Shown here piece by piece: positions 6,673-60,371 of a stretch of 64,000 bases of DNA. The stretch is taken from positions 1,152,001 through 1,216,000 of the forward strand of contig OZ242221.1 of assembly GCA_965206845.1 (NCBI GenBank), given 5' to 3'. The first letter of the stretch is position 1; every line of letters begins with the position of its first letter. The position numbers were made by a program, and so were the translations under genes. The notes beneath the pieces were generated by a model that saw only the letters and a program-made list of their open reading frames with translations, searched no databases and was not told where the DNA came from. This stretch comes from Cenarchaeum sp. (GTDB lineage: Archaea > Thermoproteota > Nitrososphaeria > Nitrososphaerales > Nitrosopumilaceae).

Positions 6673-9600
6673 GTGCTAAAAAAATCCAGACTTGCTGTAG
6701 CGTTTTTACTGGTGGCTATTATGACGAGCCTTCCCGTATACCCTGCGCACTCACAGGTGGATCTTGACGGGGACGGCTATGCGGGCGACGCGGATCTGTG
6801 CCCCCACCTTCCCGAGGACAACGCAGGCAAGCTGGACGGATGCCCGTCTGACTTTGTGCCCTGGTACGACCAAGATCGTGACGGGATACGCGATCGCCTA
6901 GATGACTGCCCAGCCCTGCCAGAGGCATACAACAACTTTCTGGACTCTGACGGCTGTCCCGATGTAGTAGCGGGAGGCACGGGTGCAGGGGCGCCAGACT
7001 CGGACTCTGACGGCATACCCGACGTGATAGACAGGTGCCCCAACGAGCCTGAGACGTTCAACGGCGTGCTTGACTACGACGGCTGCCCCGACGAATCCAG
7101 ATACGGCCCCGACTTTGACTCGGACGGCATTCCCGACGCAGACGACCAGTGCGTCTCGGAGGGCGAGGTGTTCAACAACTTTGAGGACACCGACGGTTGC
7201 CCCGATGACATAACCGAGTTCCGGCCCAACGACGTGGACTCGGACGGCATTCCCAATGATTCTGATTTCTGCATTACGGCGCCCGAGACGCACAACGGGT
7301 ACCTTGACGAGGACGGCTGCCCGGACTCTCTGGGAGACAGCATATTCTTTGACTCTGACGGCGACGGCATAGATGACCGCTATGACTCCTGCCCGGAGCA
7401 GCCCGAGACCTTTAACAATTTTGCAGACTATGACGGCTGCCCGGACGTCCTGTCCACATCTGACCGTCCCCTTGATACCGACGGCGACCTGATACCGGAC
7501 ACCGAGGACGAGTGCCCGCTGGAGCTTGAGCGATACAACAAGTTTGAGGATGACGACGGCTGCCCGGACATGCCGCCACACCAGCCCGACGGTGATCCGG
7601 ACATGGACGGGCTTTTCACCTCCGTGGACGCATGCCCCCTGGTAGCGGAGACGTTTAACAATCACCAGGATGACGACGGCTGCCCGGACTATCTCGGCAC
7701 GGAGAGGGAGATCCCAGACTCTGACGGCGACGGGTTCCCCGACTTTGCGGACTCGTGTCCCAGCGAGCCTGAGACGTTCAACGGCATACTGGACACTGAC
7801 GGCTGCCCAGACCGGGAGATCACCCGGGACAGCGACCGCGACGGGATAGCCGACGGTTTTGACGCGTGCCCCAGGAGTCCCGAGACCTACAACAGGTTCC
7901 AGGATCTGGACGGCTGCCCTGACAGCATACTAGACACCAACCTTGCCGACGAGGACGATGACGGCATACCAAACTCCTTTGACCAGTGCGTGCTGAACCC
8001 CGAGACATACAACGCGTATAGGGATCTTGACGGCTGTCCCGATCACCTGCCCACTACAGATGCCGACCGCGACGGCGTAGCCGACGGGGTCGACCTGTGC
8101 CCAGACGAGCCCGAGACCCGCAACGGCTACAACGATCACGACGGGTGCCCAGACGCCCCGGTCAGTGTGGATATGCTCCGCGTGTACTTTACAGAGCCGC
8201 CCATACTGGACAGCGACCGGGACGGAATCATAGACTCGCAGGACACATGCCCGCTGATATCTGAGACATTCAACAGGTTCCTAGACGAGGACGGCTGCCC
8301 CGACTCTGTCGGCCAGTTCAGGGAGATTCCGGACTCTGACTCGGACGGCTTCCCCGACTATGCCGACTCGTGCCCCAGCGAGCCTGAGACGTTCAACGGC
8401 GTGCTTGACTACGACGGCTGCCCCGACTTGGACACCTTTAATGACTCTGACACGGACGGAATATCCAACGAGTTTGACTCGTGTCCGGAGGATGCAGAGA
8501 CGTACAACTTATTTGAGGATACCGACGGATGCCCAGACGAGCCGCCGGGTGCAGCACCGGCGGACCACGACGGTGACGGCATAGCCGACATGCGCGACCG
8601 GTGCCCGACGGTACCCGAGACGTCCAACGGGTACCTTGACGAGGACGGATGTCCTGACTCACTGCCGGCAACCGACACGGACGGGGACTTTGTGCCGGAT
8701 CACCTGGATCTGTGCAGCGACGAACCGGAGAACTGGAACAACTATCTGGATTATGACGGGTGCCCAGACGACCCCACAGGCAACGACGCGGACTTTGACG
8801 GGATACCCAATGCAGACGACCAGTGCCCGCAGGAGCGCGAGAGGCACAACGGCTACGAGGACGAGGACGGGTGCCCAGATATCCCGCCGTACCTGATAGT
8901 CGTGGACTCTGACTATGACGGCATCATGGATCCGGATGACGCGTGCCCGTCGGTACCTGAGGTCTTCAACAACTTCCAGGACGAGGACGGCTGCCCCGAC
9001 TCTGTGGAGCAGGGTACGAGCATTCCCGACTCTGACGGCGACGGGTTCATAGACTCTGCTGACCTGTGCCCCAACCAGCCCGAGACATTCAACAACATAC
9101 TTGACCTGGACGGGTGCCCCGACGATGTAGTGGGGCTTGCGGATACTGACAGTGACGGATACCCAGACGGCGCGGACTCGTGCCCGGAGATGGCCGAGAA
9201 CTTTAACGGGTTCCAGGACTCCGACGGGTGCCCTGATGTAATCGAGGTGCCCGTGTTCAACGATGCCGACGGCGACGGGGTGGAGAACAGCTCTGACGCG
9301 TGTCCCTTTGAGGCGGAGGTCGTAAACGGCCTGCAGGACGACGACGGATGCCCCGACGAGCTGGTGCTGGGGCCCGACTCTGACGGCGACGGCGTACCCG
9401 ACTACAGGGACTGGTGCCCCGACCACCTGGAGGTCATAAACCGCTATCTTGACACCGACGGATGCCCAGACGTAATCCCGACGCCGTCACACAGGACCGA
9501 CAGCGACGGCGATGCCATATATGACGATGTGGACATGTGCCCCGACGAGCCTGAGACATGGAACAAGTACAGCGACTCTGACGGGTGCCCAGACATCTTC

Positions 9601-9726
9601 CCCGGACTGTCCAGGTACTCAAATGACATGGACCTTGACAACGTGCTAAACAGCGTGGATGCGTGCCCTGCAGACCCAGAGGACTATGACGGCGACCGCG
9701 ACACCGACGGCTGTCCGGATCCATAG
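6673..9726 (+). CDS. Secreted thrombospondin type-3 (Ca-binding) repeat protein, ~25 repeats
   Basis: Signal peptide, then repeats of DxDxDG(I/V)PD..D.CP..PE..N...D.DGCPD. Confidence 0.9.
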   Translation: MLKKSRLAVAFLLVAIMTSLPVYPAHSQVDLDGDGYAGDADLCPHLPEDNAGKLDGCPSDFVPWYDQDRDGIRDRLDDCPALPEAYNNFLDSDGCPDVVAGGTGAGAPDSDSDGIPDVIDRCPNEPETFNGVLDYDGCPDESRYGPDFDSDGIPDADDQCVSEGEVFNNFEDTDGCPDDITEFRPNDVDSDGIPNDSDFCITAPETHNGYLDEDGCPDSLGDSIFFDSDGDGIDDRYDSCPEQPETFNNFADYDGCPDVLSTSDRPLDTDGDLIPDTEDECPLELERYNKFEDDDGCPDMPPHQPDGDPDMDGLFTSVDACPLVAETFNNHQDDDGCPDYLGTEREIPDSDGDGFPDFADSCPSEPETFNGILDTDGCPDREITRDSDRDGIADGFDACPRSPETYNRFQDLDGCPDSILDTNLADEDDDGIPNSFDQCVLNPETYNAYRDLDGCPDHLPTTDADRDGVADGVDLCPDEPETRNGYNDHDGCPDAPVSVDMLRVYFTEPPILDSDRDGIIDSQDTCPLISETFNRFLDEDGCPDSVGQFREIPDSDSDGFPDYADSCPSEPETFNGVLDYDGCPDLDTFNDSDTDGISNEFDSCPEDAETYNLFEDTDGCPDEPPGAAPADHDGDGIADMRDRCPTVPETSNGYLDEDGCPDSLPATDTDGDFVPDHLDLCSDEPENWNNYLDYDGCPDDPTGNDADFDGIPNADDQCPQERERHNGYEDEDGCPDIPPYLIVVDSDYDGIMDPDDACPSVPEVFNNFQDEDGCPDSVEQGTSIPDSDGDGFIDSADLCPNQPETFNNILDLDGCPDDVVGLADTDSDGYPDGADSCPEMAENFNGFQDSDGCPDVIEVPVFNDADGDGVENSSDACPFEAEVVNGLQDDDGCPDELVLGPDSDGDGVPDYRDWCPDHLEVINRYLDTDGCPDVIPTPSHRTDSDGDAIYDDVDMCPDEPETWNKYSDSDGCPDIFPGLSRYSNDMDLDNVLNSVDACPADPEDYDGDRDTDGCPDP

Positions 9727-11618: not shown

Positions 11619-11646
11619 GAGACAGCTTGAAAGATTGATACGGGAT

Positions 11647-14427
11647 ATGAGAGTACATTATCTTCTTGGGTTTTTGCTGATTATGGCTTCCGTTGCAGGT
11701 ACCACGCATACCCTTGCCGCAGAGAACGATCTGGACGACGACGGCGTTGCGGACAACGTGGATGCCTGCCCGTTTGTAAGGGAGGACTTTGCAGGTATAC
11801 TGGACGGCTGCCCGTCTGACTTTGTGCCCTGGTACGACGCCGATAGCGACGGAATCGAGGACAACCTGGACTTCTGCCCCGTGGCAAGGGAGAACTACAA
11901 CCTGTTCCAGGACGAGGACGGCTGCCCGGACGTGGCTCCCGGTGACGGCACCGGGGCGCTGCCCGACTCTGACGGTGACGGGTTTATAGATTATCTGGAC
12001 TTGTGCCCCTCGGAGCCTGAGACCTTCAACGGCATCCTGGATCGGGACGGCTGCCCTGACAGCTATCTGCCCTTCCTGGACCAGGATCAGGACGGCGTAC
12101 CCAACGCAGTGGACCTGTGCCCGCTGGATCAGGAGGTGTACAACTTTTACCAGGATACCGACGGGTGTCCGGATGAGGTAGCCGAGGAGACGGACCGGTT
12201 CGAGTTCCCCGACACCGACGGCGACGGGCTAGATGACCGGTGGGACCAGTGCCTGGACGTGGCCGAGAACTTTAACAATTACCTTGACTGGGACGGCTGC
12301 CCCGACATACCGGGAGTGACGCTGGGCGGGGAGCGCGATGCGGACTTTGACACGATTCCTGATCTGTTGGATCAGTGCCCGGAGGTGGCCGAGAACTTTA
12401 ACAGGTTTGAGGATGACGACGGGTGCCCAGACACGGTTGTCATCACCAGGGTAGGGGATCTCGACGGTGACTTTGTGCCAGATGACGTGGATCAGTGCCC
12501 GCTGAGCGCAGAGATATACAACCGGTTCCTTGACACGGACGGCTGCCCCGACTATGTGAACCTGAGGACTGCTGGTCCTGCCGACTCTGACGGCGACGGC
12601 ATCAACGACTATATCGACCAGTGCCCGACAGAGGCCGAGACGTTCAACGGCATCCTGGATGCCGACGGCTGCCGCGACGACTACACCCCGCTGCATGATG
12701 GCGACGGCGACGGCATACCAAACAACCTGGATGCGTGCCCTGACGAGCGCGAGGTGCACAACGGCTTTGAGGATGACGACGGATGCCCGGATGCGGTTGA
12801 CGAGGACACCTCTGCCACCTTTACGTTCCCCGACACCGACGGCGACGGGCTGGATGACAGGCGGGATCAGTGCGTGGATGTGCCCGAGAACTTTAACGAT
12901 TACCTTGACTGGGACGGCTGTCCCGACGTGCCCGGATTCAACCTGGGCGCCGTGGTTGACACCGACGGCGACGGGATACTGGACGGCGCCGACCTGTGCC
13001 CGACCATAGGCGAGAGGTACAACAACTACTTTGACGAGGACGGCTGCCCGGACGTGATCGATCTGGAGTACAGCGGTGACCGGGACAGCGACGGGGTTCC
13101 CGACGGCCTGGACCAGTGCCCGCAGGTGCGGGAGACCTACAACAGGTTCCAGGACGAGGACGGCTGCCCCGATGTAGTGCCACCGGGGATAGCCAGGCCT
13201 GTCGACTCTGACGGCGACGGCATCAGCGACCTCTTGGATCTGTGCCCCACGGAGCTTGAGACCTTCAACGGCATCCTGGACCGGGACGGCTGCCGCGACG
13301 ACTACTCCTTGACGCAGGACTCTGACGGCGACGGCATTGAAAACAGTGTGGATTCGTGCATTTACGAGCGGGAGGTATACAACAACTTCCAGGATAACGA
13401 CGGATGTCCCGACGCAGTCGATGCGGGCGTGACCGAGTTCACGTTCCCCGACACCGACGGCGACGGGCTGGATGACAGGTGGGACCAGTGCGTGGACATA
13501 CCCGAGAACGTCAACGGCTACCTTGACTGGGACGGTTGCCCGGACACGCCAGGCGTGGTGTCCCCGGCCTTGATAAACGACTCTGACGGTGACGGCATCA
13601 TTGACGAAAACGACCTGTGCCCCGACATAGGCGAGAGGTACAACAGCTATCTGGACGAGGACGGCTGCCCAGACCTGATACCGGTCCTCCGCGACGGCGA
13701 CTCGGACACCGACGGAATAGCGGACTCGCTTGACGCCTGCCCGCAGATTGCCGAGACGTATAACGGCTTTGAGGATGACGACGGCTGCCCCGACTATATC
13801 GGAGGTGTGGGCGGCATTCCGGACAGTGACATAGACGGAATAATCGACGTTCTGGACCTGTGCCCGCTGGCCCCCGAGACCTACAACGGCGTGCTTGACC
13901 ACGACGGCTGCCCCGACAGGGTGCTGAGCAGCCTGGATGCAGATGACGACGGCATACCGGATCCCCTGGACCAGTGTGTTGACGAGGCAGAGGTGTACAA
14001 CAGGTTCCAGGACTCTGACGGCTGCCCAGACTCTGTCATCACGGGACAGACCGACTTTGAGTTCCCAGACACAGACGGAGACGGCCTGGATGACAGGTGG
14101 GATCAGTGCCTGCTCGAGCCAGAGGAGTTCAACGGATACCTGGATCACGACGGCTGCCCAGATGTCATACCGGAGGAGGCCAGCTACGAGTCCGAGGGTG
14201 ACATCGACGGCGACGGCTTCATAAACGAGGCCGACTCGTGCCCCACGGAGCCTGAGACCTGGAACAAGTACCGGGACTACGACGGATGTCCGGACGCACT
14301 GCCGAGCCAGCCCAGGGTTACACCCGATAGCGACGGCGACGGCATTCCGGACAGCGTAGACGCGTGTCCAAGCGAGGCCGAGAACTATGACGGCGACCGC
14401 GACACCGACGGCTGTCCCGACCCGTAG
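11647..14427 (+). CDS. Secreted thrombospondin type-3 repeat protein, ~22 repeats
   Basis: Signal peptide; same repeat; shares LDGCPSDFVPWYD near the N-terminus and YDGDRDTDGCPDP at the C-terminus with 6673-9726. Confidence 0.9.
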   Translation: MRVHYLLGFLLIMASVAGTTHTLAAENDLDDDGVADNVDACPFVREDFAGILDGCPSDFVPWYDADSDGIEDNLDFCPVARENYNLFQDEDGCPDVAPGDGTGALPDSDGDGFIDYLDLCPSEPETFNGILDRDGCPDSYLPFLDQDQDGVPNAVDLCPLDQEVYNFYQDTDGCPDEVAEETDRFEFPDTDGDGLDDRWDQCLDVAENFNNYLDWDGCPDIPGVTLGGERDADFDTIPDLLDQCPEVAENFNRFEDDDGCPDTVVITRVGDLDGDFVPDDVDQCPLSAEIYNRFLDTDGCPDYVNLRTAGPADSDGDGINDYIDQCPTEAETFNGILDADGCRDDYTPLHDGDGDGIPNNLDACPDEREVHNGFEDDDGCPDAVDEDTSATFTFPDTDGDGLDDRRDQCVDVPENFNDYLDWDGCPDVPGFNLGAVVDTDGDGILDGADLCPTIGERYNNYFDEDGCPDVIDLEYSGDRDSDGVPDGLDQCPQVRETYNRFQDEDGCPDVVPPGIARPVDSDGDGISDLLDLCPTELETFNGILDRDGCRDDYSLTQDSDGDGIENSVDSCIYEREVYNNFQDNDGCPDAVDAGVTEFTFPDTDGDGLDDRWDQCVDIPENVNGYLDWDGCPDTPGVVSPALINDSDGDGIIDENDLCPDIGERYNSYLDEDGCPDLIPVLRDGDSDTDGIADSLDACPQIAETYNGFEDDDGCPDYIGGVGGIPDSDIDGIIDVLDLCPLAPETYNGVLDHDGCPDRVLSSLDADDDGIPDPLDQCVDEAEVYNRFQDSDGCPDSVITGQTDFEFPDTDGDGLDDRWDQCLLEPEEFNGYLDHDGCPDVIPEEASYESEGDIDGDGFINEADSCPTEPETWNKYRDYDGCPDALPSQPRVTPDSDGDGIPDSVDACPSEAENYDGDRDTDGCPDP

Positions 14428-26386: not shown

Positions 26387-26755
26387 GGGAATTATATGCC
26401 TGGTTAGCGACCATGCCTTTTTCTGGCGCTCTCTCCGGCACTTGGCTCTCGTGCCTTGTTAACGGAGCGCATGGGAGCAATCCCATGCTGGAATCTCGCG
26501 CCTTGGGACGACATTCCCTGCCGCCCTGTTGCCCAAATGGCAACTTGTATGCGGCATTGACGTCCGCGTTGTCTGCACATCCACATTTGTCATTCGTGCA
26601 TTTGAACTCCGCCTGCGCGGACTGTCTGTCGGATATGGGACTCCATGACGGTATTCCTTCAGTCAGCTCAATCAACAGCGCAGGAGAGCCAAGTGTGGGA
26701 TGGATCGCAGGAACGTCAGAAAAAGGCCTGGTTGCTAATCAAGTATATGGTTCCC
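26387..26755. mobile_element. Internally deleted TnpB-family element (MITE-like) with long inverted ends and ATTC duplication
   Basis: Ends GGGAA.../...TTCCC; ATTC at 26383-26386 and 26756-26759; tnpB C-terminal remnant FKCTNDKC..ADVNAA on the minus strand; ends homologous to those of 36041-37926. Confidence 0.82.
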
Positions 26756-30663: not shown

Positions 30664-30748
30664 GCGGGCGTCGCCCAGCCTGGCCAAAGGCGCTAGCTTG
30701 AGGGGCTAGTCTCTAAGGAGTTCGTGGGTTCAAATCCCATCGCCCGCA
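30664..30748 (+). tRNA. tRNA-Leu (GAG)
   Basis: GCGGGCG/CGCCCGC acceptor; CTAGC-TTGAGGG-GCTAG anticodon arm; long variable arm; TTCAAAT loop. Confidence 0.95.
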
Positions 30749-35991: not shown

Positions 35992-36037
35992 ATGTCTACT
36001 TTATCCAGTACTGGCATATTTACAGATACTTGCGCGG

Positions 36038-37687
36038 TTACGGGGAATTATATACATGAGTACGCAGTACCCTGCCTTTTTGTGGCGCTCTTGCAATCCC
36101 TCCCACGCGTGGCTCTTGCGTGTTGTTTGCGGAGCGTCCGGAAGCAATCCCGGCCTGGAATCTTACGCCTTTGGACGACGATCCCCGCCGCCCTGCCGCC
36201 ATGGCTGTCGCCTTGGAGGCAATGTTATGCGCCGCGTTTATGTCGGCGTTGATGTCATTGTCACACTTGTCATTGGTGCAGTGGAACTTTCCCTGCGATA
36301 TGCGGGAGTCCCTGTCTTTGTGGCCGCACATGTGGCATGTGATGCTCGTGCCACTTGGGTCGACCGTGATGACCGCAACGCCCATGTTTTCGCATGTCTG
36401 CTCAATCTGGCTCAGGAACGTCCTCGGGCGCGAGTATGCCATCTCGCGGTTGAGGCCGGTCTTGGCGGAGCTTCCCTTGCCTTTGCCCCTGGCCGTCATG
36501 TTCCTGATGTTCAGGTCCTCGATGACAACCGTGCCGGCGCCGTCGGCTATCCTCTTGGACGCGTGTCGCTCCCAGTTGGTCTGCTTGTTGGCAATCTTCT
36601 CACGCTTCTTGCGGATCCTCCTTTGCAGATCCTTGTAGCTGCGGGACTTGGGGTTCCTGGACCTATTCCTGTTGCTGCCGTTCGTGTTTTTGCCCCCGTC
36701 GTTTGCGCCACCATTGCGAGCCTTGATCCTCCTGCTGCCGCTGCCTCCCCCCTTTCGTGAGAGCTCCGCATACATCTTCGATATGTCGTCGTTCTTCGTC
36801 CTCTTGCTGCCGTCCGGGATGTCGTGGAACTCGGCGTAGCCGGTATCAAGGTCGACGGTGGTGGCGTTGTGAACTATGCCCATGTCGACCCCCCTGATGA
36901 CATCTGACGTTTCGGGCTTTGGCGCCTCCATCCCGACCTGTATGTGAAGCCTGTACGTCCTGTTGTGTTTTTCGGTGAGCCTAGTGGTCTTCTTGGTCGT
37001 CTCCACCAACTGGAAGGATCGCATGTCCAATCCCTCAACGTCATCATGCACCTTCACGGTACCGATGCCGGGAAGCATCACCATGCCGTTGCCCTTGGAC
37101 ACCGGCTTCTCGAACACGGAGAGGGACCGCATTTTTCCCTTCCTCTTGAACAGGTCGCCCCTGTGGCTCCACTTGTTCTTTTTGTTGCTCCATTTGTTGG
37201 ATGGTAAATTTGCCGCCGTGTCAACATCCTCAACTCCCTCCTTTTCCCTGTAGCGCCTGGCCAGGTGTTTCCACAGTGCGTTGTTGCGGCGCTTTTTCCC
37301 GTTGGATTCTATGAACTTCTTTACCGCGTCCAGGCCCTGGCGGAGCCCTACCCTCTGAACCCTGCTGTCGCAGGCCTCCCTGATCCCGGCAGTCCGCGCA
37401 TAGTCATCATGGACCAGCCACGCCTTCGCGTTCCTCCATTTCGTGAGCATCCTGCAGAGGTCATAGAATGTTACGTCAGGGCTTCTGAGCGCCTCCTGGA
37501 CGGCCATGTTGAACGCCCACCTCTGTTGATCCATGTGACGCGATATGAGGACGGAAAGATCACCGGACTGGTCAAAGTCCGCCTTTATGGTGCGGATCAT
37601 CGTGTCTGGCGTAGCCGCCGTGGCGGATTTCGCTTTCGCTTCTGGCTCTGGCGCGGCTGCCGTTGCCACCATATCGATTGATTTCAT
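36038..37687 (-). CDS. tnpB: TnpB family RNA-guided endonuclease, ~550 aa, RuvC triad intact
   Basis: RuvC-I GVDMG, RuvC-II VIEDL, zinc finger CHMC...CTNDKC, RuvC-III ADINAA.NI; TTTTAT box near 37715 fits ATG 37687. Confidence 0.92.
   Translation of the reverse strand: MKSIDMVATAAAPEPEAKAKSATAATPDTMIRTIKADFDQSGDLSVLISRHMDQQRWAFNMAVQEALRSPDVTFYDLCRMLTKWRNAKAWLVHDDYARTAGIREACDSRVQRVGLRQGLDAVKKFIESNGKKRRNNALWKHLARRYREKEGVEDVDTAANLPSNKWSNKKNKWSHRGDLFKRKGKMRSLSVFEKPVSKGNGMVMLPGIGTVKVHDDVEGLDMRSFQLVETTKKTTRLTEKHNRTYRLHIQVGMEAPKPETSDVIRGVDMGIVHNATTVDLDTGYAEFHDIPDGSKRTKNDDISKMYAELSRKGGGSGSRRIKARNGGANDGGKNTNGSNRNRSRNPKSRSYKDLQRRIRKKREKIANKQTNWERHASKRIADGAGTVVIEDLNIRNMTARGKGKGSSAKTGLNREMAYSRPRTFLSQIEQTCENMGVAVITVDPSGTSITCHMCGHKDRDSRISQGKFHCTNDKCDNDINADINAAHNIASKATAMAAGRRGSSSKGVRFQAGIASGRSANNTQEPRVGGIARAPQKGRVLRTHVYNSP
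36041..36169 (-). ncRNA. Putative omega/reRNA scaffold overlapping the tnpB 3' end (left TIR)
   Basis: Canonical position for a TnpB guide scaffold; hairpins CCGGGA-TTGC-TTCCGG and GGGTAC-TGC-GTACTC; transcription is inferred, not shown. Confidence 0.55.
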
Positions 37688-37796
37688 TACCGCATTCAAT
37701 ATTCCACATCGCATAAAAGCGCCGATGCAACACTGTCATTAGTATGCAGACCATGCAGACTGTCAATACCGTAATGGCCATTTTTGCCACTGGTCG

Positions 37797-37926
37797 GGCG
37801 CGAGACTCCGGCGCGGGATTGCTCCCGCGCGTTCCGTGAATCAAACGCGAGAACCAAGCGTTGGAGGGATTGCAAGAGCGCCACAAAAAGGCAGGGGTAC
37901 TGCGTACTCATGTATATAATTCCCCG
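37797..37926 (+). ncRNA. Second, inverted copy of the putative scaffold (right TIR)
   Basis: Hairpin GCGCGGGA-TTGC-TCCCGCGC at 37811-37830 with compensatory changes relative to the left copy. Confidence 0.5.
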
Positions 37927-37927
37927 G

Positions 37928-38476
37928 TTACGCCTCTACGATTGCCACGTCGGGCGCAGGCGCCTCTTCTGCGGGAGCCTTCTTTAGGATGTCGCCAAAC
38001 GACGAGCCCGGCGTAAGCCCGATCCCGTCCTCCTCCGCCACTGTCACGATATACGACGGAATGTCAATTACCCTGTCCCCGATTGATATGTGCCCGTGCA
38101 CCACGGCCTGCCGTGCCTGGTATGCCGTCTTGAAGCCCATCCTCTTTACGATTATGGTCTGCAGCCTCCTCTGCAGCAGGTCGGTCACCTGCAGGTTCAG
38201 CACGTCATCCAGCGTTGACTCGGCCTGTATGAGGCCTATGCGCGCAAGCGAGCTGAGCAGTATCGGCTCCCGTTCCTGCCTCTCCTCCTGCCTCAGCGCT
38301 AGGAGAGCGCGGGCCTGCTTTCTTAGCCTTGAGAGCTCGGTGTGCGTCTTCCAGAGCTCCCTCTTGGTTCTGAGCCCAAAGTCGCCCAAGGTCTTGAGCT
38401 CCTCCACCTTTAGATCATAATTGAGCGGGCGCTTTGGCTTTCTCCAGTTCTTTCTTGGCAGCTTTGGATCTCCCAT
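37928..38476 (-). CDS. rps4: 30S ribosomal protein S4
   Basis: MGDPK, GL..KRELW, RRLQT, QARQ.V.HGHI. Confidence 0.96.
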   Translation of the reverse strand: MGDPKLPRKNWRKPKRPLNYDLKVEELKTLGDFGLRTKRELWKTHTELSRLRKQARALLALRQEERQEREPILLSSLARIGLIQAESTLDDVLNLQVTDLLQRRLQTIIVKRMGFKTAYQARQAVVHGHISIGDRVIDIPSYIVTVAEEDGIGLTPGSSFGDILKKAPAEEAPAPDVAIVEA

Positions 38477-58779: not shown

Positions 58780-58824
58780 AAAGATCTCAACTTCTACTCC
58801 GATTATAAAGTTTTAGATGTGGCG

Positions 58825-60032
58825 GGGGTTGGTGCGTAATTCTCTGAACCGCCTAGACCAGTCCGATACGTTCAATGATCCGCGATCTCCCGCACGCGGC
58901 AATGAGCGAACACAGCAGACGGGAAGGATACTGGCAGTACTATGAACTGGCAAAGGAAGTCGAGGCACCCAGCCTGAAGAGGGAGCTGATCGAGATAATC
59001 CGGGAGAACCCTTGCCCGCGCCGAGAAAACGGCAACAGGGGCCGTCCCCCGGTTCACTCCAAGGAGAAACTGGACTTTGCCTGTCTGCTGATGATGGCAG
59101 GCAACAACACCTATCGCGGAGTCGAATCGGACCTGCGAGGCATGCGGACACCATGGGACAACGAGCCCGTCCCGGACCATACCACACTGGTCAGGCACCT
59201 CCAGACGATACCGGCAGACTGGCTCGATCTGATCGTGGCCGAGACGGCCCGCCGTTGCATCAAAGAGGCGGACGAGGCGACGGGCCCGCTGGGAGCCGAC
59301 AGCAGCGCGGCGGAGACCACTAGGTACGAATACGTCGAGAGGCCAAGCAGGAAGGAGCGCGACTTCGTCGAGACACGCCAAAAGACCTACTGGAAATACC
59401 ACATAACGGCCATCTTGGGCCTGCAGATCGTGCTGGCGGCGTTCACCACGCCCAGCAACATCAACGACACGACCATGCTTCCAGTCATGCTGGCTGAGAT
59501 CAGGCGTCGCGGGTTTGACTTTGCGGGGAACTTCTTTGACGGGGACAAGGGGTACGACTCTGACTACAACTGCGAGCTGCTGTTCTGGATGGGCATGATC
59601 CCCAACATCAAGCAACGGAAGGATGCCGTCAACCGTGGCAAGTCGCACAGGAGGAAGGCAGCCGGCATGTTCAGCGATAGCGAGTACAGAAAGAGGGCCC
59701 TGATAGAGGGCATCTTCGGGGCCGAGGAGACCCGGCGGCACCAGCTGCACTGCCGGTTCGTCCGGGAGGACAACCGGCGCCGGTTCGCCAAGGGAAGGGC
59801 GATCGCTTGGAACATCCGGGTCCTCAACCGGTTCGAGTGCGCCAACCGGCTAAACATGCCGATACCCTCCTACGGTGGCATGGCGCACGTGGAGTGCGCC
59901 TGATGATCCGACCCGTCAGTAGCTGATCACGGCGTGCGGGCAACAAAGCCCGACACACACCAAAGCACCGCCGGTGAAGATGCGGTGGGAGACACACATG
60001 AGCAGGACGGAGCAGAATTACGCACCAACCCC
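58825..60032 (+). mobile_element. IS5-like insertion sequence, 1208 bp
   Basis: Perfect 19-bp TIR GGGGTTGGTGCGTAATTCT (58825-58843 / 60014-60032); 9-bp TSD GATGTGGCG (58816-58824 / 60033-60041). Confidence 0.93.
58875..59903 (+). CDS. DDE transposase (IS5-like)
   Basis: PDHTTL, ADSS, KYH, GDKGYDS, YRKRALIEG.F (YREK-type). Confidence 0.88.
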   Translation: MIRDLPHAAMSEHSRREGYWQYYELAKEVEAPSLKRELIEIIRENPCPRRENGNRGRPPVHSKEKLDFACLLMMAGNNTYRGVESDLRGMRTPWDNEPVPDHTTLVRHLQTIPADWLDLIVAETARRCIKEADEATGPLGADSSAAETTRYEYVERPSRKERDFVETRQKTYWKYHITAILGLQIVLAAFTTPSNINDTTMLPVMLAEIRRRGFDFAGNFFDGDKGYDSDYNCELLFWMGMIPNIKQRKDAVNRGKSHRRKAAGMFSDSEYRKRALIEGIFGAEETRRHQLHCRFVREDNRRRFAKGRAIAWNIRVLNRFECANRLNMPIPSYGGMAHVECA

Positions 60033-60268
60033 GATGTGGCGTGGATATGGGATCGCGTCTTTTCCCCCATCCGGGCACGAGGACGCACGCCCGGAGAGGC
60101 CTCTGCGCCTGGCCCAAGGCAGCAGGTGATCCCTGTACTGGCGTGGCATGTGGGCTCATCTGCCGTACCAAACCCGGTGGAGAGCCTCCCGGGTATGCGA
60201 TACGGCTTGGCGCTCCCGCATCTGCACGGCGCGGGCGGATCCGGTGACGGCTCGTAGCCGGTACAGTA

Positions 60269-60371
60269 TGGTGCAGAAGGTGGGATTCGAACCCACGAAC
60301 CCCTAAGGGAAAGGATCGCCCATGAACTGATCTTGAGTCCTTCTCGGTTGGCCGGGCTTCGGTACTTCTGC
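60269..60371 (-). tRNA. tRNA-Leu (CAA) with 15-nt intron (~60317-60331) and encoded CCA
   Basis: GCAGAAG/CTTCTGC acceptor; AAGGA-CTCAAG[intron]A-TCCTT; long variable arm; TTCGAAT loop. Confidence 0.9.

What the first reader, a model, noticed from the sequence alone, without database searches (positions are those of the whole stretch)
37797..37926. Both element ends look like omega-RNA scaffolds facing outward: possible dual-guide TnpB
Seen: the TIR is the region overlapping the tnpB 3' end, and its hairpins covary across copies. CCGGGA-TTGC-TTCCGG (36138-36153), GCGCGGGA-TTGC-TCCCGCGC (37811-37830) and GCATGGGA-TTGC-TCCCATGC (26469-26488) keep the TTGC loop while stem pairs change. An outer GGCG(C)/(G)CGCC stem, an A5 linker and a terminal hairpin (GGGTAC-TGC-GTACTC vs TGGT-CGCTA-ACCA) are also retained. 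Established: TnpB guide RNAs overlap the gene 3' end and take their guide from DNA just outside the element. Inference: two scaffolds would give two guides, one per flank on opposite strands, overlapping at the empty site. The AT-rich box at 37711-37720 could drive divergent transcription.
Basis: partly seen in the sequence, partly recalled or inferred. Interest (0 to 1): 0.85.

Follow-up and report, generated by a model that had tools for sequence, protein, structure and literature searches.

The report
Extra-long inverted repeat on archaeal TnpB transposon
The right end of this small archaeal jumping gene really is a mirror copy of its guide-RNA scaffold, but sister copies show that this is a rare, probably accidental duplication and not a built-in second guide; the transposon family itself is unusual because it has inverted ends and target duplications yet no known transposase.

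Summary
Observation confirmed. Window 36043-37924 is a 1,882-bp insertion sequence with only tnpB (minus strand), an 8-bp target duplication (CGGTTACG) and ~130-nt terminal inverted repeats. A contig in another run shows the precise empty site. The left arm overlaps the tnpB 3' end and is a covariation-supported omega-RNA-like scaffold: 35 pairs, 9 with compensatory changes, across 17 copies. The right arm (37797-37924, plus strand) keeps helices H1-H4 (28 of 29 pairs; 134 bits against 165-182 for true 3' ends) but lacks the first hairpin, H0.

Dual-guide interpretation not supported as a family feature. Of 15 tnpB-bearing copies in this 1.65-Mb genome, only this one has an intact 5' scaffold. 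One other is decayed (85 bits, 10 of 67 invariant columns broken). The remaining 13 keep weak partial matches or only the 13-26-nt terminal repeat. Nine related elements in two other Nitrosopumilaceae genomes have one scaffold each. The right arm is mosaic, 91-97% identical to the 3' ends of other copies, so the covariation was probably inherited. The AT-rich box is the conserved tnpB TATA box. No usable RNA evidence exists.

More notable: this TnpB-only family has TIRs, 8-bp duplications and an invariant G 5' of the duplication, and the genome has no TnpA.

The parts
36035..36042 (.). Left copy of the 8-bp target-site duplication, CGGTTACG
   Evidence: Identical 8 bp on both flanks. A contig in run X5 joins 36034 to 37925, skipping 1890 bases with 8 shared letters; this is the empty site.
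36043..37924 (-). Complete 1,882-bp TnpB-only insertion sequence, ends GGGAATTATATAC...GTATATAATTCCC
   Evidence: Termini shared by 17 paired copies in the genome. Single ORF. Absent as one unit in the empty-site contig.
36038..37714 (-). tnpB ORF as listed (558 aa, P0001). The probable start is the ATG at 37687, 28 nt downstream of the TATA box. The stop codon lies in the left target duplication.
   Evidence: Pfam PF07282 8e-16 and PF01385 4e-9. D277, E399, D491 and C460/C463/C479/C484 are invariant in 28 homologues. PDB profile hits are to Cas12f/TnpB.
36043..36191 (-). The inferred guide would continue leftward from 36042.
   Evidence: Covariance model 165.5 bits. Consensus structure of 35 pairs, 97.6% of cells paired, 9 pairs with compensatory change.
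37711..37719 (-).
   Evidence: Conserved as [CT]TTTTAT[AG][CT] in 9 of 15 copies at the same distance from the ATG (alignment).
37797..37924 (+). Right (tnpB-5') arm: outward-facing inverted copy of scaffold helices H1-H4. H1 37797-37801/37878-37882; H2 37811-37818/37823-37830; H3 37832-37835/37863-37866 and 37844-37848/37858-37862; H4 37891-37899/37905-37913. No H0.
   Evidence: Covariance model 134.1 bits. 28 of 29 H1-H4 pairs formed. 1 of 67 invariant columns changed. 91-97% identical to the 3' ends of copies E748142 and E870565.
37925..37932 (.). Right copy of the 8-bp target-site duplication. It contains the TAA stop of the ribosomal protein S4 gene (37928-38476, minus).
26387..26755 (-). 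369-bp MITE-like deletion derivative of the same family. It has a near-intact scaffold arm 26387-26524 (-) and a decayed inverted arm 26617-26755 (+).
   Evidence: Covariance model 134 and 54.3 bits. 32 of 35 and 24 of 35 pairs. 18 of 67 invariant columns broken in the decayed arm.

Best explanation
37797-37926 is the tnpB-proximal terminal inverted repeat of a 1.88-kb TnpB-only insertion sequence. The host is a Nitrosopumilaceae archaeon, and the element sits between the rpS4 and glmS genes.

The working guide-RNA gene is at the other end. The omega-RNA-like scaffold (36043-36191, minus strand) overlaps the tnpB 3' end. It would read out into the 8-bp target duplication and the flank beyond it, and the invariant G 5' of the duplication is a candidate minimal TAM.

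At the tnpB-proximal end the family needs only the terminal 13-26 bp. In this copy that end carries an inverted duplicate of scaffold helices H1-H4, without H0. The duplicate was acquired by recombination or gene conversion with the 3' end of another family member before the element inserted here. It is a by-product that lengthens the TIR, not a maintained second guide-RNA gene. Such duplicates arose more than once in the family and then decayed.

Shown: the anatomy, the covariation at 3' ends, the rarity and decay of 5' copies, the mosaic origin, and the mobility of the whole unit. Inferred: the RNA itself, the TAM role of the G, and the copying mechanism.
For: (1) Unit and mobility. There are 17 paired copies with the same termini. 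The target duplication is 8/8 identical in 10 of 17, 7/8 in 2, 6/8 in 1, 5/8 in 1 and 3/8 or less in 3. An empty-site contig removes exactly 36043-37924 plus one duplication copy.

(2) The 3' scaffold is under structural selection. On 17 sequences, 35 pairs give 97.6% of cells paired, against 90.6% when shuffled. The covariation score is 0.255 against 0.124, reached by 0 of 500 shuffles. Sliding the partners gives 37-54% paired. Many G-U pairs make the structure specific to the tnpB-sense strand.

(3) 5' arms are not maintained. End-to-end self-alignment spans 13-26 nt in 11 of 17 elements, about 48 nt in 2, 71-80 nt in 1, 82-90 nt in the MITE, and 126-128 nt in 2. Covariance-model scores for the 15 tnpB-bearing copies are 134, 85, 45, 36, 32, 29, 23, three near 12, and five with no hit at E<=1.

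(4) The other long 5' arms are decayed. E1049606 keeps 25 of 35 pairs and has 10 of 67 invariant columns broken. The MITE 5' arm keeps 24 of 35 pairs and has 18 of 67 broken.

(5) Copies with only short TIRs still have perfect duplications, so the inner hairpins are not needed at the 5' end for movement.

(6) Mosaic origin. The right arm is 97.5% (positions 1-40) and 91-92% (41-128) identical to the 3' ends of E748142 and E870565. The adjacent 5' UTR is 92% identical to E1049606. The copy's own 3' arm interior is 93% identical to E1049606 and E129358.

(7) In two other Nitrosopumilaceae genomes, 9 of 9 element loci have one scaffold hit, at the 3' end.

(8) The AT-rich box is the conserved tnpB TATA box.
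Against: The right arm is as intact as a working scaffold over H1-H4: 28 of 29 pairs, and 1 of 67 invariant columns changed against 0-3 for true 3' ends. Yet its closest 3' end in this genome differs at about 8% of positions. Either the donor is unsampled and the copy is young, or the arm has been under constraint.

In this copy the base after the duplication is C, so a G precedes the duplication on both strands. This is the geometry the dual-guide idea needs. It occurs in 3 of 13 copies overall and could be chance.

By eye, the E1049606 and MITE 5' arms share a re-paired outer H2 stem (rows). That could mean past constraint or inheritance from an unseen donor.

No transcript data of any kind bear on the right arm.
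Confidence: 0.62

Rival explanations
1. Dual guide. The right arm is transcribed outward on the plus strand and loaded into TnpB. Its guide is CGGTTACG plus the rpS4-side flank. The empty site would then be recognised from both strands, with the two guides overlapping in the 8-bp duplication.
For: The right arm has intact H1-H4 (28 of 29 pairs) and 1 of 67 invariant columns changed. Its G-U pairs are in the outward orientation. A G precedes the duplication on both strands in this copy. Archaeal TATA boxes can be bidirectional; this point is recalled, not tested.
Against: H0, which is invariant in sequence and covarying in 17 of 17 true scaffolds, is missing. No outward promoter was identified, and the only conserved box faces tnpB. 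Only 1 of 15 copies here and 0 of 9 elsewhere have an intact second scaffold, and the other long arms decay. The mosaic origin explains the covariation.
Confidence: 0.13
2. DNA-level role. The long inverted repeat, or its hairpins as extruded or single-stranded DNA, improves end recognition or synapsis by whatever enzyme moves the element.
For: Both ends of every copy share the terminal 13-26 bp. Seven 5' ends (clade A) keep the terminal hairpin H4 at 6 to 9 of 9 pairs, and four of these also keep H3b at 5 of 5 pairs.
Against: Eleven of 17 elements, most with perfect duplications, have only 13-26-nt TIRs, so inner hairpins are not required. The G-U pairs make the structure strand-specific, which fits RNA better than duplex or cruciform DNA. 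The clade-A 5' ends are related by descent, so their shared hairpins are not independent.
Confidence: 0.1
3. Regulatory antisense. Read-through from the upstream rpS4 gene (same strand as tnpB) would place the complement of the right arm on the tnpB transcript. That stretch could pair with the 3' scaffold and so dampen omega-RNA formation or TnpB expression.
For: rpS4 ends inside the right duplication and is co-oriented with tnpB. The arms are 81-90% complementary over about 130 nt.
Against: This depends on the insertion site, so it cannot explain the arm's origin. The element has its own promoter downstream of the arm. No data bear on it.
Confidence: 0.05
4. The right arm is a leftover 3' end of a different, older element next to which the present element landed (a nested or adjacent insertion).
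For: The arm resembles the 3' ends of other copies more than it resembles its own partner.
Against: The identical 8-bp duplication lies outside the arm. The empty-site contig lacks the arm together with the rest of the element. The arm therefore travelled as part of the unit.
Confidence: 0.02

Closest known systems
TnpB / omega-RNA (OMEGA) systems of IS200/IS605, e.g. ISDra2
   Same: A RuvC plus zinc-ribbon (TNB) nuclease with an invariant D-E-D triad. A structured RNA scaffold overlaps the tnpB 3' end and stops at the element boundary, so the guide would be flank DNA. There is an orientation-specific conserved base 5' of the target.
   Different: IS200/IS605 elements have no TIRs or target duplications and need a Y1 TnpA (passages read in PMC13565253 and PMC3627910). 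Here there are TIRs and 8-bp duplications, and the complete genome has no Y1 or serine TnpA. The first 8 nt of the inferred guide are the duplication. The TAM candidate is a single G rather than a 4-5-nt motif.
IS1341-group TnpB-only elements
   Same: tnpB is the only ORF. There are many diverged copies per genome with intact ORFs.
   Different: A passage in PMC3627910 states that TnpB-only elements lack TIRs and TSDs. This family has both.
Fanzor1 inside eukaryotic TIR/TSD transposons
   Same: A TnpB homologue carried by an element bounded by TIRs and target duplications. Copies that carry only the nuclease persist with intact ORFs (PMC3627910, abstract and passages).
   Different: Fanzor1 is eukaryotic or viral, and partner DDE or Helitron transposases are known. 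Here the host is an archaeon and no partner with matching ends was found. By sequence this protein is closer to Cas12f/TnpB than to the one Fanzor-like chain hit.
MITE / foldback-type long-TIR derivatives of DNA transposons
   Same: One end is copied in inverted orientation onto the other. Short non-coding derivatives exist (26387-26755; a 706-bp copy elsewhere in the genome).
   Different: The duplicated end here is also a guide-RNA scaffold, so the copy looks like a second RNA gene.
IS1595-family insertion sequences (8-bp duplications; recalled from ISfinder, not from a call)
   Same: 8-bp target duplication and short TIRs.
   Different: The genome's single IS1595-type transposase gene (genome 27524-28465) has unrelated flanks and no GGGAATTATATA termini.

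Membership tests
TnpB (OMEGA RNA-guided nuclease) | Split RuvC domain with a D-E-D catalytic triad | tested here: met
   PF01385 and PF07282 score above their cut-offs. D277, E399 and D491 are invariant in 28 homologues. PDB profile hits are to Cas12f/TnpB chains.
TnpB (OMEGA RNA-guided nuclease) | Zinc-ribbon / TNB domain (CxxC...CxxC) | tested here: met
   C460, C463, C479 and C484 are invariant. PF07282 matches residues 432-498.
TnpB (OMEGA RNA-guided nuclease) | Structured omega RNA overlapping the gene's 3' end, with the guide taken from the flank | tested here: inconclusive
   The conserved, covarying, strand-specific structure ends 11 nt before the element boundary. The RNA itself was not observed: only contigs were available and no Rfam family matches.
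TnpB (OMEGA RNA-guided nuclease) | TAM next to the target on the side away from the guide end | tested here: inconclusive
   In tnpB sense, the base immediately 5' of the duplication is G in 13 of 13 copies here and in 7 of 7 in two other genomes, against 1 of 7 in the opposite orientation. Its function as a TAM was not tested.
TnpB (OMEGA RNA-guided nuclease) | RNA-guided DNA cleavage | not testable with these tools
   Needs biochemistry.
IS200/IS605 (including the IS1341 group) | No terminal inverted repeats and no target-site duplication | tested here: not met
   TIRs of 13-128 nt and 8-bp duplications are present.
IS200/IS605 (including the IS1341 group) | Y1 (HUH) TnpA in cis or elsewhere in the genome | tested here: not met
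   PF01797 gives 0 matches in the 99.99%-complete single-contig genome, and the control genomes ring.
IS607 | Serine-recombinase TnpA | tested here: not met
   PF00239 gives 0 matches in the genome, and the control genomes ring.
Classical DDE cut-and-paste IS (autonomous or its non-autonomous derivative) | TIRs and a fixed-length target duplication | tested here: met
.
Classical DDE cut-and-paste IS (autonomous or its non-autonomous derivative) | A DDE transposase inside the element, or in a partner element with the same ends | tested here: not met
   tnpB is the only ORF. There are 46 DDE_Tnp_1 hits and 1 IS1595 hit in the genome, but the three DDE IS families examined and the IS1595 gene have other ends. 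The one DDE gene inside a copy is a nested 1.21-kb IS. Not all 46 DDE hits were inspected.
   1 of 15 copies here has an intact one, and it lacks H0. 0 of 9 elements elsewhere have one.
   Only assembled contigs were available.

The most novel reading that the evidence does not exclude
The right-arm scaffold copy is transcribed outward and used by TnpB. This element would then carry two guides that converge on the 8-bp duplicated target from opposite strands, each preceded by the G that is invariant 5' of the duplication. Long-TIR copies would be a recurrent, useful state of a TIR/TSD-type TnpB transposon family that has no TnpA, and whose movement may depend on TnpB itself or on an unknown enzyme.
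Probability: 0.1. Interest if true: 0.85.

Novelty: new variant of a known kind. Interest (0 to 1): 0.55.

Why it matters
The specific claim, a designed dual-guide TnpB, is weakened. The second scaffold is a rare and apparently unmaintained duplication.

The element family underneath is unusual. Prokaryotic TnpB is described only in IS200/IS605, IS607 and IS1341-type elements, which lack TIRs and target duplications (passages in PMC3627910 and PMC13565253). This Nitrosopumilaceae family differs in several ways:
- It has identical termini and 8-bp duplications.
- Its insertion is orientation-specific, next to a G.
- Its omega-RNA-like scaffold has a 3' tail that doubles as the TIR.
- The complete genome has no Y1 or serine TnpA.
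- One copy shows a filled/empty polymorphism.

The family therefore offers a prokaryotic parallel to Fanzor-in-TIR-transposon arrangements. It also makes an old question concrete and testable: can a TnpB-only element move, and by what enzyme? Searches of the held library for TnpB together with Nitrosopumilus or Thaumarchaeota found no paper.

Tried and rejected
- **Relatives by protein.** A genome-contig scan with P0001 found nothing. A sample of 60 other genomes of the same family gave 0 matches at E<=1e-20. A sample of 400 other genomes of the order gave 1 distant match. A metagenome-contig scan with alignment A1 returned 68 loci, all distant TnpBs at 25-53% identity. These were not used further.
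- **Relatives by DNA pattern.** This scan gave 6 loci. One (Ahrensia, L135) looks like chance and was dropped. L136 is a disrupted close relative and was used only for its 3' end.
- **Rfam.** No family matched at either threshold.
- **Single-sequence folding.** Not discriminating, with z-scores from +0.4 to -2.3.
- **AlphaFold model of P0001.** Too poor to search with (pLDDT 46.7). No fold search was run.
- **Autonomous partner.** The terminal 12-mer at 1 mismatch or less occurs only at TnpB elements, MITE-like copies and 11 solo sites. Three DDE IS families and the IS1595 gene have other ends. The remaining DDE hits were not inspected.
- **Sequencing runs.** All four laid runs are contigs. 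No contig covers 37583-37866, which includes most of the right arm, in any run. Short contigs in X2 and X3 (labelled 'RNA?', a guess) cover 36032-36258. Contigs cannot show transcription, so neither the gap nor the cover says anything about expression.
- **Nested-remnant origin of the right arm.** Rejected.
- **sigma-70 promoter scan.** Not run, because the host is an archaeon.
- **How each paper was seen.** PMC3119063, PMC13565253, PMC9956272 and PMC3627910 were seen as 'find' passages only. All others were seen as search listings only.

Full report
**What is there**

Window 36043-37924 is a discrete 1,882-bp element. Its ends read GGGAATTATATAC... and ...GTATATAATTCCC, and it is flanked by identical 8-bp copies of CGGTTACG.

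It has one ORF on the minus strand (36038-37714, 558 aa). The protein matches Pfam OrfB_IS605 and Cas12f1-like TNB. In an alignment of 28 homologues the RuvC residues D277, E399 and D491 and four zinc-ribbon cysteines are invariant. A profile search of the PDB hits Cas12f, TnpB and related chains, but only in the C-terminal half.

The element lies between a ribosomal protein S4 gene and glmS, both on the minus strand. The S4 stop codon is inside the duplication.

A contig in run X5 is more than 99% identical to both flanks. It joins 36034 to 37925 and skips 1,890 bases, with 8 letters shared between the two sides. X5 is an RNA library labelled sponge metagenome; DNA may be present in it. This is the precise empty site, so the whole stretch, right arm included, is one mobile unit.

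**Host**

The genome is a single 1.65-Mb contig with 57% G+C, rated 99.99% complete. It shares its GTDB family with a genome whose record title reads 'MAG: Nitrosopumilus sp.'. It is therefore a Nitrosopumilaceae archaeon.

The three hairpins are at the stated coordinates. The arms 36041-36169 and 37797-37926 are inverted repeats: 100 nt at 81% and 41 nt at 90%, and 130 nt at 84.6%. The left arm is the last ~130 nt of the tnpB ORF.

**The 3' end is a real RNA-type structure**

The genome holds 17 paired copies of the family: 15 with tnpB (one disrupted by a nested 1.21-kb DDE IS) and two MITE-like copies of 369 and 706 bp. It also holds a truncated copy (S755089) and solo ends. The proteins are only 57-74% identical to P0001, so the copies are well diverged.

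I aligned 17 tnpB-3' ends: 15 from full copies, S755089, and one close relative from another record. RNAalifold gives 35 pairs in six helices. I call them H0, H1, H2, H3 (two segments, H3a and H3b) and H4. Nine pairs show compensatory changes.

Counting gives 97.6% of cells paired, against 90.6% after shuffling. The covariation score is 0.255 against 0.124, and 0 of 500 shuffles reach it. Sliding the partners gives 37-54% paired. Several pairs are G-U in the tnpB-sense strand, for example 16 of 16, 17 of 17 and 15 of 17 at three positions. The fold is therefore strand-specific, as expected for an omega RNA made in the tnpB direction.

The structure ends 11 nt before the element boundary. A guide would thus begin with the 8-bp duplication and continue into the flank. 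No Rfam family matches.

**The right arm compared with true scaffolds**

A covariance model built from the 17 3' ends scores those ends at 165-182 bits and the right arm (37774-37924, +) at 134.1 bits. Threaded on the consensus, the right arm forms 28 of 29 pairs in H1-H4. It changes 1 of 67 columns that are invariant among the 3' ends; true 3' ends change 0-3 in a leave-one-out test.

It has no H0. That hairpin is present, nearly invariant in sequence and covarying (G-C 8, C-G 6, A-U 3 at its closing pair) in all 17 true scaffolds.

So in this copy both ends do look like outward-facing scaffolds, the right one incomplete.

**This is the exception, not the rule**

Self-alignment of the two ends of each element gives the following TIR lengths:

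| TIR length | Elements (of 17) |
|---|---|
| 13-26 nt | 11 |
| about 48 nt | 2 |
| 71-80 nt | 1 |
| 82-90 nt | 1 (the window's MITE) |
| 126-128 nt | 2 (this copy and E1049606) |

Covariance-model scores for the 5' ends of the 15 tnpB-bearing copies are as follows:

| Score | Copies (of 15) |
|---|---|
| 134 bits | 1 (this copy) |
| 85 bits | 1 (E1049606) |
| 23-45 bits | 5 (45, 36, 32, 29, 23) |
| about 12 bits | 3 |
| no hit at E<=1 | 5 |

The other long 5' arms are decayed. E1049606 keeps 25 of 35 pairs and breaks 10 of 67 invariant columns. The MITE's 5' arm keeps 24 of 35 pairs and breaks 18 of 67.

The 5' regions fall into three sequence clades. Only one of them carries a relic of the scaffold, with shared deletions.

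In two other Nitrosopumilaceae genomes a sister subfamily occurs: elements of 1.35-1.48 kb with the same termini. Perfect or 7/8 8-bp duplications were found in 7 of the 9 loci examined. All 9 loci have a single scaffold hit, at the tnpB 3' end.

Elements with only short TIRs have perfect duplications. The inner hairpins are therefore not needed at the 5' end for movement.

**Where the right arm came from**

The window copy is a mosaic:
- Positions 1-40 of the right arm are 97.5% identical, and positions 41-128 are 91-92% identical, to the 3' ends of copies E748142 and E870565.
- The adjacent 5' UTR is 92% identical to E1049606.
- The coding region is 76-81% identical to various copies.
- The interior of its own 3' arm is 93% identical to the 3' arms of E1049606 and E129358.

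The right arm is thus a 3' end of another lineage placed in inverted orientation, presumably by recombination or gene conversion between copies.

E1049606's 5' arm resembles its own 3' end instead. Such duplications have therefore happened more than once.

**What argues the other way**

The right arm differs from its nearest 3' end in this genome at about 8% of positions, yet breaks almost nothing. Either the donor is unsampled or the arm has been constrained. The family is large: one search listed 120 of its 150 homologue clusters, and most of the full-length ones are 56-74% identical. An unsampled donor is therefore plausible.

In this copy the base after the duplication is C, so a G precedes the duplication on both strands. 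This holds for 3 of 13 copies overall, and for E1049606, whose duplication is only 5/8.

I cannot exclude a functional second RNA in this copy and give it about 0.13.

**Promoter**

It lies 28 nt upstream of an ATG at 37687 and is conserved in 9 of 15 copies at that spacing. It is the tnpB TATA box. Nothing conserved points outward.

**RNA data**

Only assembled contigs were available. They cannot show starts, ends, strand or level.

**The family as such**

In tnpB sense, the base immediately 5' of the duplication is G in 13 of 13 copies with a duplication of 6/8 or better, and in 16 of all 17 copies. It is G in 7 of 7 elements of the sister subfamily, against 1 of 7 when those are read in the opposite orientation (strands, locus orientation checked). 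The base after the other duplication copy is unconstrained (T2, C3, G5, A3).

Insertion is therefore orientation-specific relative to an asymmetric target. That is expected for a TAM-type rule and unusual for a classical TIR transposase. The element end reads CCC where the empty site has the G, which would spare the filled site; this is inference.

The complete genome has no Y1 TnpA and no serine recombinase (controls ring). It has 46 DDE_Tnp_1 hits and one IS1595-type gene. The families I inspected have other ends, and no pair of family termini encloses anything but tnpB.

Passages I read state that IS200/IS605, IS607 and TnpB-only elements lack TIRs and TSDs (PMC3627910, PMC13565253). Library searches for TnpB with Nitrosopumilus or Thaumarchaeota returned no paper. 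How these elements move is open.

**Verdict**

It sits on a TnpB-only, TIR/TSD-type archaeal IS family that is itself a new variant of a known kind.

Noticed in passing
window 36035-37932, and 16 other loci of the genome; L139, L143-L149 in two other genomes: A TnpB-only IS family with identical termini (GGGAATTATATA...TATATAATTCCC) and 8-bp target duplications. In tnpB sense, an invariant G sits immediately 5' of the duplication. The complete genome has no Y1 or serine TnpA and no partner transposase with these ends. This contradicts the usual description of prokaryotic TnpB elements as lacking TIRs and TSDs.
   Followed up: partly
window 36034/37925 (run X5): A contig in another public run shows the precise empty site between rpS4 and glmS. 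The window copy is therefore a presence/absence polymorphism among close relatives, which means recent insertion or precise excision.
   Followed up: partly
window 36038-36045: In most copies (10 of 15) the tnpB ORF ends at the TAA inside the terminal ...TATATAATTCCC. In the window copy a 1-nt deletion in hairpin H4 shifts the frame, and the stop is the TAA of the flanking target duplication.
   Followed up: partly
window 26387-26755: A 369-bp MITE-like derivative with one near-intact scaffold arm (with H0) and one decayed inverted arm. It has no clear target duplication.
   Followed up: yes
window 58822-60034: A 1.21-kb DDE (DDE_Tnp_1) insertion sequence, present in at least 7 copies at 95-99% identity in the genome. 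One copy is nested in a TnpB element at genome 870565-872715, with loss of the tnpB 5' half.
   Followed up: partly
window 6673-9726 and 11635-14427: Two large ORFs (1017 and 930 aa) are built from dozens of ~120-nt repeats that match thrombospondin type 3 (calcium-binding) repeats. They are possible surface or adhesion proteins of a sponge-associated archaeon.
   Followed up: partly
genome C1:27524-28465 (outside the window): The single IS1595-type DDE transposase gene of the genome (313-aa open frame). I could find no recognisable inverted repeats around it.
   Followed up: partly
window 60272-60371 and 30664-30748: These tRNA matches are 100 and 85 nt long, longer than a plain tRNA, and may carry an intron or a long variable arm. 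ARAGORN was not run.
   Followed up: no
X2 contig at window 36033 (table 7): One short contig follows the 3' scaffold 10 nt past the element end and then continues with 11 unrelated letters. It could be a strain difference or an assembly branch. I did not interpret it.
   Followed up: no
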